In this document: positions 23,968 to 30,338 of the stretch, in pieces
Position numbering within the stretch: position 1 is the stretch's first letter
Layout: each line of letters opens with the position of its first letter
Origin: the human T2T-CHM13v2.0 reference genome, Homo sapiens
Assembly (NCBI RefSeq): GCF_009914755.1
Contig: NC_060939.1
Reading direction: 5' to 3' (one strand)
DNA length: 64,000 nt
Made by a program: the position numbers and the translations under genes
The notes under the pieces: generated by a model
The model's database searches: none
What the model was told of the DNA's origin: nothing
What the model saw: the letters and a program-made list of their open reading frames with translations, nothing else

Positions 23968-24271
23968 TTGTTTGTTTGTTTTTTATTTTGAGACAGAGTC
24001 TCGCTCTGTCTCCCAGGCTGGAGTGCAATGGCACAATCTCGGCTCATTGCAACCTCCGCTTCCTGGGTTCAGACGATTCTCCTGCCTCAGCCTCCCGAGT
24101 AGCTGGGATTACAGGCGCCCACCACCGCACCCAGCTAATTTTTGTATTTTTAGTAGAGACAGGATTTCACCATGGTGGCCAGGATGGCTTCGAACTCCTG
24201 ACCTTAGGTGATCCGCCCGCTTCAGCCTCCCAAAGTGCTGGGATGACAGGCATGAGCCACCGCCCCTGGCC
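23968..24271 (-). mobile_element. AluSx-like
   Basis: full reverse dimer. Confidence 0.95.
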
Positions 24272-24754
24272 TGATAATTTTCTTTCTTTCATGATTGGCT
24301 CGTTCATGCTCTAAACTTAAGACTGGTCGAGGAAGTAGTACGTCTCTGTATTTTCAGTTGCTAGCACTAGTAGCCTACCAGGACTTTGGAGTTTATAAAT
24401 ATCTGTTTAGCAGACGGTTGATCTGGGCAAAACTTTTGTAGGCAGTGATAATTTTTCCTTTTCTTGAAATATGTTTAGAAAATGGAAATCCTATTTGAAA
24501 GCATGTTTCTTACATAGAAGGAAGTAATCTAGTTTTGTGCTACATGCGTTCCTTTTTCTAATGTAGCTTATGATGCATGATTGCTCCTTCATCACCTATC
24601 TCCCAAAGACTAAATACTTTCTATTTTGCTGAATGTCTAAGGATATTTGAGATGCTTATGAGGAGGTCTTTTCTGGCATGAGGTTTGACCTAACAGCGCT
24701 GCAGAGAATATATGGTAATTGTTACGGTTTTAGCATGACCAAAGAGAATTTTCT

Positions 24755-25050
24755 TTTTTCTTTCTTTTTTTTTTTGAGATGGAGTCTCGTTGCCCAGGCT
24801 GGAGTGCAGTGGCGTGATCTCAGCTCACTGCAACCTCTGCCGCCTGGGTTCAAGTGGTTCTCCTAACTCAGCCTCCCGAGTAGCTGGGACTACAGGCGCC
24901 CACCACCACGCCCAGATAATATTTTGTATTTTTGGTAAAGATGGGGTTTCACCGTGTTAGCCAGGATGGTCTCGATCTCCTGACCTCTTGATCCGCCCAC
25001 CTCGGCCTCCCAAAGTGCTGGGATTACAGGTATGAGCCACCATGCCTGGC
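24755..25050 (-). mobile_element. AluSc/Y-like with 19-bp TSD tgaccaaagagaattttct
   Basis: reverse dimer, perfect TSD. Confidence 0.95.
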
Positions 25051-25670
25051 TGACCAAAGAGAATTTTCTCTGCATCTGAAGCATATAACTGCAAACCGAT
25101 TTGTTTGTGGTTGTTAAATAAAGAGGACCAATCTTTTGTTTGTTTATATGCACTGTTTCCTTTCTCGCCCTAGTTGCATGAGAAACAGAAGCTTCTTAGA
25201 TTGATCAGTTGCCTCCTTTTGTTGCATTTGAGCGTTGAGAACAAGGACCATGAGTTTTCTCCTCCATTGTGGTTTTAGTTCTAACATCTGGCACATAGTA
25301 TTTAGTAAAGATTTGTGGAATAAGTGAGATAGGGTATTGGGGAAGATCATAAGAAAAACAAAAGATGAATTATTTATTTATAAATTTATTGTTAGGTCTA
25401 TTCCAAAACTGACTTAGAAAGACAAAATTCTTTCCTGCTATAAAATATTTGTAAGAACTGTGTTGGGTTGGAGTTTGGGATTCACTTTTCCCATTGCAGA
25501 TGCTTAAAAACCTCAGACTTTTCTTGTTGGGTTTCTTTTTGGGGAGGACTTTATTAGGGATACCATTTATAGTAGAAATTTGGAAGACTGTAAAAACCAC
25601 TTAATATTCCCGAAAGATGGAAGGTTGTTTCTGGAAGCTGTTAGGTTTTGTTAAGGCAGAGATAATACAT

Positions 25671-25960
25671 TTTCTTTTCTTTTTTGAGACGGAGTCTTTC
25701 GCCCAGACTGGAGTGCAGTGGTGTGATCTCGGCTCACTGCAACCTCTGCCTCCTAGGTTCAAGCGATTCTCCTGCCTCAGCCTCCCCAAGTAGCCAGGAC
25801 TATAGGCGTGTGCCACCGTGCCCAGCTACTTTTTGTGTTTAGTGGAGACAGGGTTTCACCACGTTGGCCAGGCTGGTCTCGAACTTCTGACCTCACGTGA
25901 TCCCCCCGCCTTGGCCTCCCAAAGTGCTGTGATTACAGGTGTGAGCCACCATGCCTGGCC
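25671..25960 (-). mobile_element. AluS
   Basis: reverse dimer, TSD taatacat. Confidence 0.95.
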
Positions 25961-26182
25961 AGTAATACATCTTTAGAGAGATCATTTTCCTTGGAACATA
26001 ACTGAAAATGGTAGGATGAAAAGATGTGTAAAATGTAACTGAAGGTGGAAAAATCTTGCTCTGAATCTCTCACTTTCGTTTGAGTTAAATATTATTTTTA
26101 TTCTTGAAGGAAGTTCTGGGAGTTTGTAGAAGTAGCCAGAAAATATCTTTAGAATATAGTGCTCTATGCAATATCCTGAGCC

Positions 26183-26499
26183 TTTTTTTTCTTTTTTTCT
26201 TTTTTTTTTTTTGAGACAAGAGTCTCTCGCTCTGTCGCCCAGGCTGAAGTGCAATGGTGCGATCTCAGCTCACTACAAGCTCCATCTCCTGGGTTCACGC
26301 CATTCTCCTGCCTCAGCCTCCTGAGTAGCTGGGACTACAGGCGCACACCACCACACCCAGCTAATTTTTGTTGTATTTTTTAGTAGAGACAGGATTTCTC
26401 CATGTTAGCCAGGATGATCTCGATCTCCTGACCTCATGATCCACCTGCCTCGGCCTCCCAAAGCGCTGGGATTACAGGCGTGAGCCACCGTGCCTGGCC
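26183..26499 (-). mobile_element. AluY/Sc-like
   Basis: reverse dimer, TSD tatcctgag. Confidence 0.95.
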
Positions 26500-26555
26500 T
26501 ATCCTGAGACATTTTTGACAGTGCTGCAAACTATTACTATTTTTTCAGGTAGAAA

Positions 26556-26689
26556 TATTTTATTTTATGTTGGAGATGGGATCTCGCTTTGTTGCCAAGG
26601 TTGGTCTTGAACTCCTGGCTTCAAGTGGTCCTTCTGGCTTGGCCTCTCAAAATGCTGGGATTACAAGGCATGAACCACAGTGCCTGGCC
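26556..26689 (-). mobile_element. FLAM
   Basis: gagatgggatctcgctttgttgcc...tgctgggattaca...gtgcctggcc. Confidence 0.85.
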
Positions 26690-27078
26690 TGGAAATAATT
26701 TTTACTATAGATTCTTTCCTCTTTAAATTAATATTATGGGTTATGAAGCTCCTTTTGTATAATAATATCCAATATATGTTGTCAACCAGGGTATTGCTTT
26801 GCTTTTTCTTTAAAAAGGAGAAAACATGTAAGGTAGAGGAAGTGTAGTTTACTCTTAGGCATTCAGACAGTTTTTATTATTGGTGTCGTAGAAAACCCCA
26901 GACCATTTGCTGAGACCAAAAACTGTATTTTTAAAATTTTAACACTTAATTTTTCTCCTGTGGCTTGTGTGAAGTTTTTAGGTGTAAAGCGTGAACAAGT
27001 AAGAGATTCATTTAACAAAACATTATTTTAGGAAACAAATATGAAAAAGCATTAAAACCATTCTTTTTTCTCTCCTAG

Positions 27079-28302: not shown

Positions 28303-28587
28303 GGCCTGAAGATCAGAGATTTATTGCTCCTGCTAACTTCCTTTTCCAAAAATTTGAGCTTCAGGCTGTCTAATCAACGATAATAGAAGAAGTCATCTAA
28401 CCTGCTTGGTTTTCCGGAAAATGTATTATGGTCATGCCAGTATATTGTGGCTTACAGCATTGCTCAAAAAAAGACAGACTCAACTTTTAGATGAGATCAG
28501 GGAAACAAGTGAGTCAAAACCTGTTGAACACTAGCAAAGCCTTTCCTTTTCATTTGATGTATTGTGTGTATTAAGACACCTTTTTTA

Positions 28588-28882
28588 GGCTGGGCACAGT
28601 GTAATCCCAGCACTTTGGGAGGCGGAGACAGAAGGATTGCTTGAGCCCAGGAGTTCAAGACCAGCCTGGGTAACATGGTGAGACCTCATCTCTACAAAAA
28701 ATTTTTACAAATTAGCTGGGCCTGGTGGCATACACCTGTAGTCCTAGCTACTCAGGAGGCTGAGGCAGGAGCATCACTTGAGTCTGGGAGGTCGAGGCTG
28801 TAGTGAGCCATGATTGCACCACTGCATTCTAGCCTGGGCGACAGAGCAAGACCCTGTCTCAAAAGAAAAAAAAAAAAAAAAA
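28588..28882 (+). mobile_element. AluJ
   Basis: ggattgcttgagcccaggagttc...gcaagaccctgtctcaaaa. Confidence 0.93.
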
Positions 28883-29172
28883 CAAGATATTTTCTTACAG
28901 AAGCCAGTAAAACCTAGGTGAAATCATTTTGTTTGAGTTACTTTTACTGTTGAAGAGTGACATGAATTTCATATGAGATGTAATTAGCAGATTAAAGCTG
29001 CCCATTTTTATGTTTTTCTGAGAAAGAGATTAAAATGCTTTACTGTGTTATGTCCATAATCTGGAACAATCATTTTACTGAGGAATGCTGTTACTGTTCT
29101 GAACTTCACATCAAGTTCCAGATTTTCATTCTCCCACACAGGAGTTTTTTAAATTTCAAAAGATGTCAGTGG

Positions 29173-29478
29173 GGCTGAGCGCAGTGGCTCATGACTGTAA
29201 TCCCAGCACTTTGAGAGGCTGAGGTGGCGGGAGGATTGCTTGAGCAATGTGGAGACCTGCCTGGGCAACATAGTGAGACCGTATCTCTACAAAACAGTAA
29301 AAAATTAGCTGGGAGTGTGATGAGACTGTAGTCCCGGCTACTCAGGAGGCTGAGGTAGAAGAATCTCTTGAGCTCAGGAGGGCAAGGCTGCAGTAAGCCC
29401 CATTCACATTATAGCACTCCAGCCTGTGCAGCAGAGCAAAACCCTATCTCCACCCCTCTCCCCCCCACACACAAAAAA
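29173..29478 (+). mobile_element. AluJ, degenerate
   Basis: dimer with internal deletion; TSD gtcagtg. Confidence 0.88.
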
Positions 29479-29786
29479 GTCAGTGCTAGAACTTAATACA
29501 GACAAATTTGCATTCACAACTACAATTTCTTGGTTGAAGATTAACTGAGAAGGTATTCGTGTGATATAAATTGATCAGAGTGGAGGTTTTAGAGCAGTTA
29601 AAAATCTGCTGTGAGGATTAAATGATGTGTGTAGGTTACAGTACTGTCTGTATTTATCTTTGATTTAGACTCAGCTATTGGGCAGTAAGAATTTCTTAGT
29701 GACTGAAGAATCAGAGTTACCACAGATTGCTTGTTTAGGGCGTATGCACATCTAAATCATGGGAAAGGAACAAAATATGTTAACTC

Positions 29787-29910
29787 TTTTTTTTTATTAT
29801 TATACTTTAAGTTTTAGGGTACATGTGCACAATGTGCAGGTTTGTTACATATGTATCCATGTGCCATGTTGGTATGCTGCACCCATTAACTCGTCATTTA
29901 GCACTAGGTA
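29787..29910 (-). mobile_element. L1PA 3' end fragment, abruptly truncated
   Basis: ttattattatactttaagttttagggtacatgtgcacaatgtgcaggtttgttacatatg...tcatttagcactaggta. Confidence 0.93.
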
Positions 29911-29913
29911 GAT

Positions 29914-30005
29914 CAGCACTTTGGGAGGCCGAGGCAGGGGGATAGTTTGAGCCCAAGAGTTTGAGACTAGCCTGGGCAACATAGTGAGGCCCTGTCTATG
30001 CAAAA
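29914..30005 (+). mobile_element. 5'-truncated Alu/FLAM monomer fused to the L1 fragment
   Basis: cagcactttgggaggccgaggc...ctgggcaacatagtgaggccctgtct, then a (gaat)n tail. Confidence 0.88.
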
Positions 30006-30229
30006 TGAATGAATGAATGAGGCATTATGGTCACTCTTACTAGATTTGATTGACTGTGCCTTTACTTTTCAATAAATAATACATAGACTTTCCTGACCTA
30101 AGCTTTATGATGATCTCAGGTTGTGATATGGGGGTAGGAGGAGGTTAACTCTCTCTATAGCCACTGCTTTCCTTAAAATCATTGCTTTTTATTTAAGTGT
30201 CTTAACATGGCATTTTAAAAAGCAACCTT

Positions 30230-30338
30230 GGCCAAGCATGGTGGCTCATGCCTGTAATCCTGACACTTTGGGTGGCTGAGGTGGGAGGATTGCTTGAGCC
30301 CAGGAGTTGGAGACCAGCCAAAAAAAAAAAAAAAAAAA
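30230..30338 (+). mobile_element. Short FLAM, poly(A) directly after gagaccagcc
   Basis: ggccaagcatggtggctc...ggagaccagcc then A run; TSD aaaaagcaa. Confidence 0.88.

What the first reader, a model, noticed from the sequence alone, without database searches (positions are those of the whole stretch)
23968..30338. 457-nt RERE-derived exon bracketed by opposite-orientation Alu clusters: candidate pseudogene circRNA
Seen: all five Alus in the 3 kb upstream of exon 27079-27535 are on the - strand, all five in the 3 kb downstream are on the + strand, and both splice sites are strong. Known: complementary flanking Alus promote back-splicing, and RERE is a recognised circRNA host. Inference: if transcribed from the captured promoter, this copy could make a paralogous circle. 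It would differ from parental circRERE by a 12-nt DKDK deletion (parent sequence recalled) and two TGA codons, so its reads could be mis-assigned to RERE.
Basis: partly seen in the sequence, partly recalled or inferred. Interest (0 to 1): 0.7.

Follow-up and report, generated by a model that had tools for sequence, protein, structure and literature searches.

The report
Pseudogene copy makes a circular RNA
A duplicated, non-coding copy of one RERE exon, placed behind a copied ZCCHC14 promoter, has kept the inverted Alu repeats of its parent and likely makes a 457-base RNA circle; a matching circle is already listed in a human embryo catalogue, and it is probably an inherited by-product without a function of its own.

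Summary
In detail: five antisense Alus lie upstream and five sense Alus downstream of the 457-nt exon (two downstream ones are 90-nt fragments). It is mostly inherited: eight of the ten sit at the same places in RERE on chr1, whose 469-nt exon is a published circRNA. REREP3 is a three-donor mosaic: the ZCCHC14 CpG island and exon 1 (chr16), 2 kb from chr22, and RERE (chr1). A 28-kb deletion filled with an L1 3' end leaves the copy without the one antisense Alu that could compete downstream in RERE. The predicted circle is already a row in the supplement of Dang et al. 2016: REREP3, 457 nt, 17 junction reads in human embryos (parent 118), seen at two stages only. I found no second catalogue with it and no RNase R test. 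Mis-assignment to RERE is unlikely in RNA-seq, because two differing bases lie 13 and 17 nt from the junction; junction siRNAs and qPCR primers could still cross-react. The exon decays like the neighbouring introns and the locus is copy-number variable. Verdict: probably a real, low-level pseudogene circRNA of a known kind, useful as a natural experiment, function improbable.

The parts
1..21847 (+). Duplicon from the 5' end of ZCCHC14 (chr16:93,568,973-93,547,228, minus), 93-94% by BLAST; supplies promoter, exon 1 and most of the upstream intron
   Evidence: donor exon translates to a protein 100% identical over 190 aa to macaque ZCCHC14
4000..6300 (+). Copied CpG island (GC 0.70, CpG o/e 0.87); only 14 of 259 parental CpGs read TG/CA against 87 of 267 in the intron; ZCCHC14 start codon reads GTG at 5717; 1-nt and 41-nt deletions in exon 1
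   Evidence: Fisher p 3e-16
5980..6244 (+). REREP3 exon 1 of NR_033735.1, ending at the ZCCHC14 exon 1 donor
   Evidence: hub annotation; alignment
21846..23816 (+). Third duplicon, best match chr22:49.11 Mb (94.5% over the 435-nt unique part, 91% at the right edge), holding a degenerate CCAC/CCAT tandem array at 22295-23796
23816..42823 (+). RERE duplicon (chr1:8,193,297-8,144,001, minus) at about 95%, with two internal deletions
23968..26690 (-). Five antisense Alus, all present at the same offsets in RERE
27079..27535 (+). 457-nt exon, copy of the 469-nt start-codon exon of RERE (chr1:8,190,009-8,189,541); the circularising exon; bases that tell it from RERE nearest the junction are 27091 and 27519
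   Evidence: catalogue row
28002..29450 (+). Three sense Alus inherited at the same offsets as in RERE; 28002-28302 is the best partner of the upstream Alus (297-332 bits)
29787..29913 (-). About 125 nt of an L1 3' end, antisense, starting with a T run, at the junction of a 28-kb deletion (chr1:8,187,270 to 8,159,201); in RERE an antisense Alu begins at this T run
   Evidence: an 89%-identical relative ends an element encoding LINE-1 ORF2
29914..30319 (+). Two sense Alu fragments (92 and 90 nt) brought near the exon by the deletion
31056..31126 (+). Copy of the next 71-nt RERE exon with intact acceptor and donor (RefSeq end 31137 runs 11 nt past the donor)
38887..38930 (+). Junction of a 2.3-kb deletion (chr1:8,150,185-8,147,889) that removes a 126-nt open-frame exon candidate of RERE; the chrY copies keep this stretch

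Best explanation
REREP3 is a mosaic duplicated pseudogene whose RERE-derived 457-nt exon likely back-splices into a non-coding circle, probably as an inherited by-product, when the copied ZCCHC14 promoter transcribes it in oocytes and early embryos. Shown: the three donors, the inherited Alu bracket, splice sites identical to RERE, the broken reading frames, the preserved CpG island. Taken from print: the parent exon circularises; REREP3 RNA is present from oocyte to morula; 17 junction reads were assigned to this exon. Inferred: the upstream antisense Alus pair with the first downstream sense Alus and bring the donor at 27535 to the acceptor at 27079; transcription starts in the ZCCHC14 island; the absence of the downstream antisense Alu lowers within-intron competition, while the shortened downstream intron (3.5 kb against 31.5 kb) works the other way.
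For: Parent exon is a described circRNA, hsa_circ_0114356, 469 nt, RNase R-resistant (PMC13592967, passages), and is in three further lists (33 reads; 118 and 13 reads). Dang 2016 Table S5 row: chr15 22566768-22567225 + REREP3, 17 reads; length 457 equals this exon and neither other RefSeq exon (265, 82 nt). REREP3 RPKM 16.9, 4.5, 4.1, 7.3, 6.2, 3.1, 0.23 from oocyte to blastocyst; RERE is 7.5 in blastocyst, so the signal is not simple spill-over. If two-mismatch placements had been reported, about 58 of 118 embryo reads and 6 of 13 hESC reads would show at REREP3; 17 and 0 are listed (P 1.5e-4 for 0 of 13). 25 of 25 cross pairs inverted with none competing within 3.2 kb; RERE has 20 of 25 and 4 competing pairs. 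By-product: exon CpG loss 6 of 17, same as introns (35-48%); 3 non-CpG changes against 5.9 expected under drift, p 0.16; region lost or gained in about 70% of 147 people on one array study (PMC9835318, passages).
Against: One catalogue only, from amplified single-embryo libraries without RNase R; reads at 2 of 11 stage columns, none in oocytes where REREP3 RNA is highest. I saw no raw reads, so alleles are unchecked, and the row was matched by name, strand and length, not by lift-over. Absent from Zheng 2016 adult tissues (file 3 not flagged as cut; file 2 cut) while the parent is present, and from the hESC list. Downstream intron 3.5 kb is below the 7.5-kb median for circRNA flanks. Hairpin stability does not predict circularisation well (PMC4201285, passages). 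The mouse orthologue circularises too, and Alus are primate-specific, so Alus may not be the cause. The REREP3 stage profile does not track ZCCHC14 (Spearman 0.32, p 0.48, n 7).
Confidence: 0.62

Rival explanations
1. The 17 reads are parental circRERE reads misplaced on chr15, and the copy makes no circle; the Alu bracket is a fossil.
For: 30 of 61 placements of a 100-nt parental junction read have only two mismatches to the REREP3 junction, which may pass a default two-mismatch limit (recalled; the paper's mismatch setting was not found). No second catalogue.
Against: Systematic spill-over predicts about 58 reads, at all 8 stage columns where RERE circles occur, and about 6 in hESC; observed 17, 2 columns, 0. 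Sequencing error gives 0.4 ties in 118 reads.
Confidence: 0.13
2. The junction is REREP3-derived but linear or artefactual: exon repetition across tandem copies in a donor with a 15q11.2 gain, trans-splicing, or template switching amplified from one or two molecules.
For: Region is copy-number variable; libraries were amplified and not RNase R-treated; only two stages.
Against: Junction falls exactly on both splice sites; the mate read had to lie inside the circle; one copy of the exon on chr15 in this assembly; the parent makes the same circle.
Confidence: 0.12
3. The circle is real and functional: a stable non-coding RNA around zygotic genome activation that competes with circRERE for bound proteins such as PUM2.
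For: Circle-to-linear ratio 0.40 at 4-cell and 1.0 at morula against 0.07 and 0.65 for RERE as a gene; REREP3 RNA rises at 4-8 cell while RERE and ZCCHC14 fall; CpG island kept; PUM2 binding reported for the parent.
Against: Ratios rest on 17 reads; no sign of selection on the exon; no canonical Pumilio element in either exon; common copy loss with no reported phenotype.
Confidence: 0.08
4. The relevant product is the linear ZCCHC14-RERE chimeric RNA or a peptide from it, and the circle is incidental.
For: Spliced RefSeq transcript exists; a GTG-started frame gives about 160 codons, the first 112 ZCCHC14-like.
Against: Start codon lost, frameshift, 41-nt deletion; longest ATG frame 57 aa; RERE frame stops after 12 codons.
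Confidence: 0.05

Closest known systems
circRERE hsa_circ_0114356 (RERE exon 3, hg19 chr1:8716031-8716500; PMC13592967, passages)
   Same: Same exon, identical splice sites, eight of the same flanking Alus.
   Different: 457 against 469 nt, 11 substitutions; the 126-aa junction-crossing frame of the parent circle is cut to 12 aa; ZCCHC14 promoter; 3.5-kb downstream intron without the antisense Alu.
Catalogue row 'REREP3 chr15 22566768-22567225' in Dang et al. 2016 (PMC4911693; passages and supplement rows)
   Same: Very likely this very circle: gene, strand and 457-nt length agree.
   Different: The main text never names REREP3 (0 occurrences); no validation, origin or mechanism is given.
Alu-driven exonic circRNAs such as ZKSCAN1 and HIPK3 (PMC4201285, passages)
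   Same: Inverted Alus of about 82-84% identity within 1-4 kb on both sides of the exon.
   Different: There the Alu requirement was shown by mutagenesis; here it is inferred.
CircRNAs from duplicated genes and pseudogenes: GUSBP1 (row in the same table, 4 reads), SMN1/SMN2 (PMC11076517, passages)
   Same: A segmental duplicate keeps the introns and Alus and back-splices like its parent.
   Different: REREP3 has a foreign promoter and three donor loci, and only two RERE exons were identified in it.
circRNA-derived retro-pseudogenes (recalled)
   Same: Pseudogene and circRNA in one story.
   Different: Opposite direction: REREP3 is a DNA-level duplicate with introns, not a reverse-transcribed circle.

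Membership tests
Alu-flanked exonic circRNA | Canonical acceptor and donor at both ends of the exon | tested here: met
   Identical to RERE over 26 nt and 14 nt
Alu-flanked exonic circRNA | Inverted complementary repeats across the flanking introns | tested here: met
   25 of 25 cross pairs, best 84% over 301 nt
Alu-flanked exonic circRNA | Host locus transcribed through the exon | tested here: met
   RefSeq NR_033735.1 (hub annotation); RPKM 16.9 in oocytes; taken from published tables
Alu-flanked exonic circRNA | Back-splice junction reads at the splice sites | tested here: inconclusive
   17 reads in one catalogue; absent from two lists that hold the parent; two further searches incomplete; raw reads not seen
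Alu-flanked exonic circRNA | Covalent closure (RNase R resistance, rolling-circle reads) | not testable with these tools
   Shown in print for the parent only
Alu-flanked exonic circRNA | Long flanking introns | tested here: inconclusive
   20,834 nt upstream, 3,520 nt downstream against medians 8.7 and 7.5 kb
Alu-flanked exonic circRNA | Back-splicing depends on the Alu pairs | not testable with these tools
   Needs minigene deletions
Transcribed unprocessed pseudogene | Introns retained and reading frame disabled | tested here: met
Transcribed unprocessed pseudogene | Neutral sequence decay | tested here: met
   Exon CpG loss 6 of 17; non-CpG 3 against 5.9 expected, p 0.16; small numbers, no outgroup
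Chimeric gene in a duplicon mosaic | Spliced exons from unlinked donor loci | tested here: met
   Exon 1 from chr16 ZCCHC14, exons 2-3 from chr1 RERE, chr22 piece between
L1 insertion-mediated deletion (features recalled) | 5'-truncated L1 with its tail at a T-rich site, target sequence missing, no target-site duplication | tested here: met
L1 insertion-mediated deletion (features recalled) | Ancestral state confirmed in an outgroup genome | not testable with these tools
   No primate genomes held; whether the chr1 antisense Alu predates the duplication is open
Protein-coding circRNA | Open frame from the host start codon across the junction | tested here: not met
   12 and 16 aa frames; only a 10-aa frame crosses the junction; parent has 126 aa
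circRNA-derived retro-pseudogene | Intronless copy with scrambled exon order | tested here: not met
   Introns and Alus are collinear with RERE

The most novel reading that the evidence does not exclude
Duplication and rearrangement built an ape-age 'circle gene': a ZCCHC14 promoter drives a RERE exon whose competing Alu and downstream exons were deleted, so that a stable non-coding circle becomes a main product at the 4-cell to morula stage, at a dose that varies between people, and it competes with circRERE for its protein partners.
Probability: 0.1. Interest if true: 0.7.

Novelty: new member of a known kind. Interest (0 to 1): 0.36.

Why it matters
It gives a natural pair for testing what controls back-splicing: the same exon and Alus under a different promoter, with a 3.5-kb instead of 31.5-kb downstream intron, no competing antisense Alu and no translatable frame, distinguishable by two bases next to the junction. 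In practice, work on the 469-nt circRERE in human cells that express REREP3 should check reagents: 8 of 20 21-mers across the junction and stretches of 120 and 140 nt inside the exon are identical in both circles. The ZCCHC14 origin of the REREP3 promoter was not found in print in my searches. None of this shows a function.

Tried and rejected
Main-text searches: 'REREP3' gave 9 papers, by listing all on copy number or karyotype (one read in passages); the catalogue coordinates and 'circREREP3' gave 35 papers, the 15 listed all unrelated number matches with 0 for the name; ZCCHC14/RERE/15q11/pseudogene gave 2 unrelated listings; REREP1Y, REREP2Y, LOC101928039 gave 0. Supplements of isoCirc, the testis study PMC5153637 and Gruhl 2021 gave no hit even for the parental control, so they are uninformative. 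Szabo 2015: 11 of 16 files searched, parental junctions present, REREP3 absent. Cai 2018 ovary table was cut when stored. The hg38 numbers used there were derived from a recalled offset. Rat circRERE papers concern other, downstream exons (passages). Search for the donor of window 42830-60000 returned only dispersed repeats. Rejected: the Alu pattern as new to this locus (inherited); further chr15 copies of the exon in this assembly (only chr1); chrY copies as a source of the circle (they start at 27855, after the exon); coding potential; a canonical Pumilio element. No genome-wide background of Alu brackets around exons was computed.
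Full report
Observation. Using Alus of the window as queries, five antisense Alus lie at 23968-26690 and five sense Alus at 28002-30319. One upstream element (137 nt) and two downstream elements (92, 90 nt) are fragments. All 25 of 25 cross-exon pairs are inverted and none of 20 within-flank pairs; the best pairs are 82-84% complementary over about 300 nt. The exon 27079-27535 aligns to a 469-nt exon on chr1 with a 12-nt deletion and 11 substitutions, two of which make TGA; the splice-site flanks are identical. 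The genome search found no other copy of the exon besides two short low-complexity matches.

What the locus is. Window 1-21847 is a 93-94% copy of chr16:93.55-93.57 Mb, whose exon encodes the N-terminus of ZCCHC14. Window 21846-23816 matches chr22:49.11 Mb best and carries a CCAC/CCAT array. Window 23816-42823 is a 95% copy of RERE. The RefSeq transcript therefore joins a ZCCHC14-derived exon 1 to two RERE exons. The ZCCHC14 start codon reads GTG and exon 1 has 1-nt and 41-nt deletions; the RERE frame stops after 12 codons. Non-CpG divergence is 2.6-2.8% for both the chr16 and chr1 parts, so the two duplications are of similar age, roughly 15-20 million years at a recalled rate of about 1e-9 per site and year. 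The CpG island lost 14 of 259 parental CpGs to TG/CA against 87 of 267 in the intron, which suggests that it stayed largely unmethylated in the germ line; the comparison has no outgroup.

Origin of the bracket. All five upstream and the first three downstream Alus sit at the same offsets in RERE. In RERE the fourth downstream Alu is antisense and pairs with the nearest sense Alu as well (294 bits) as the best cross-exon pairs do (253-302 bits). In REREP3 a 28-kb deletion starts at that Alu's T run and is filled with about 125 nt of an antisense L1 3' end (an 89%-identical relative ends an element encoding LINE-1 ORF2). The intron shrank from 31,533 to 3,520 nt and holds 5 of 5 sense Alus against 12 sense and 15 antisense in RERE. 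Whether the antisense Alu was deleted or entered chr1 later cannot be told: it has short direct repeats at this site. A second, 2.3-kb deletion removes a 126-nt exon candidate, so only a one-exon (457 nt) or two-exon (528 nt) circle is expected. Two chrY copies share the L1-filled junction, start 320 nt after the exon and keep the 2.3 kb; in a three-way alignment of 10,763 columns chr1 differs alone at 230, chrY at 160 and chr15 at 123, so they branched from the chr15-type copy. On chance: 0.002 for 5/5 and 0.008 for the inherited 5/3 under independence, but a 5+3 run occurs somewhere in 47% of shuffles of the 66 parental Alus.

Evidence for the circle. The parent exon is a described, RNase R-resistant circRNA with a mouse homologue (PMC13592967, passages) and appears in adult tissues with 33 reads (PMC4823868, supplement rows). 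Table S5 of Dang et al. 2016 (PMC4911693; passages and supplement rows) lists chr15 22566768-22567225 + REREP3 with 17 junction reads beside 118 for the parent exon. I equate the row with this exon by name, strand and the 457-nt length. The method was TopHat-Fusion with CIRCexplorer, at least two reads in one embryo, mate inside the circle, no RNase R. REREP3 RNA is 16.9 RPKM in oocytes, 3-7 through morula and 0.23 in blastocysts; circle reads occur at 4-cell and morula only, 2 of 11 columns, against 8 of 11 for RERE. The main text does not mention REREP3. Against: the circle is missing from the hESC list of the same paper and from the uncut file of Zheng 2016; Szabo 2015 (11 of 16 files) and Cai 2018 (cut table) gave nothing, and three supplements held no usable catalogue. 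Files and databases that I could not see may hold it.

Mis-assignment. Bases at 27091 and 27519, 13 and 17 nt from the junction, differ from RERE, so all 61 placements of a 100-nt read with 20-nt anchors cover both. Half of the parental placements (30 of 61) have only those two mismatches, so a permissive aligner could report them twice; that would give about 58 embryo reads and 6 hESC reads, against 17 and 0 listed. RNA-seq assignment thus looks sound in both directions. Reagents are another matter: 8 of 20 junction 21-mers are shared and 62 of 370 parental 100-mers occur unchanged in the copy.

Mechanism and function. The likely sequence is transcription from the ZCCHC14 island, pairing of an upstream antisense Alu with 28002-28302, and spliceosomal back-splicing, as shown by mutagenesis for ZKSCAN1 and HIPK3 (PMC4201285, passages), which also warns that hairpin stability is a poor predictor. 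The parent circle has a 126-aa junction-crossing frame; the copy has none above 10 aa. The exon shows no sign of selection, has no canonical Pumilio element, and lies in a region reported as lost or gained in about 70% of one cohort without a known phenotype (PMC9835318, passages). Circle-to-linear ratios of 0.40 and 1.0, above RERE's 0.07 and 0.65, and the rise of REREP3 RNA at 4-8 cell are suggestive but rest on 17 reads.

Verdict. Real anatomy, inherited bracket, and a probable low-level circle of a known kind (a GUSBP1 circle is in the same table; SMN1/2). What I did not find in print is the ZCCHC14-chr22-RERE mosaic and the L1-filled deletion (the library lacks most subscription papers). 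Interest 0.36.

Noticed in passing
window 889-3147 (LOC101928039, minus strand): This lncRNA starts inside the chr16-derived block, head to head with REREP3, so the copied ZCCHC14 promoter region appears to be used in both directions (with the hub annotation).
   Followed up: no
G000:C24:25,389,076-25,403,935 and C24:27,010,001-27,023,358 (L022-L027, L033-L035): Two chrY copies of window 27855-40387, 96-97% to chr15 and 95% to chr1, sharing the L1-filled deletion; probably REREP1Y and REREP2Y (names recalled). They carry an extra repeat of about 114 nt inside the second sense Alu.
   Followed up: partly
window 22295-23796: Degenerate CCAC/CCAT tandem array of 1.5 kb from the chr22-like piece, directly at the edge of the RERE duplicon; a likely length-variable site.
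   Followed up: partly
window 38887-38930: The 2.3-kb deletion junction holds about 40 nt of filler with a short motif repeated three times, suggesting templated insertion during repair.
   Followed up: no
window 31127-31137 and 31699-31834: The RefSeq last exon ends 11 nt past an intact donor, before a T run; the nearest polyadenylation hexamers are at 31699 and 31829, so the true 3' end may differ.
   Followed up: partly
window 42824-64000: The RERE block ends inside an Alu at 42823; the donor of the sequence beyond was not found, the search returned old dispersed repeats at 70-78%.
   Followed up: partly
G000:C18:62,726,621-62,726,866 (L016): 76% match to the ZCCHC14-derived exon 1; probably the paralogue ZCCHC2 (name recalled).
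   Followed up: no
window 5717-6244: A GTG-started frame would give 112 ZCCHC14-like codons before the frameshift; the parental exon holds the Vts1-like domain at residues 11-54.
   Followed up: partly
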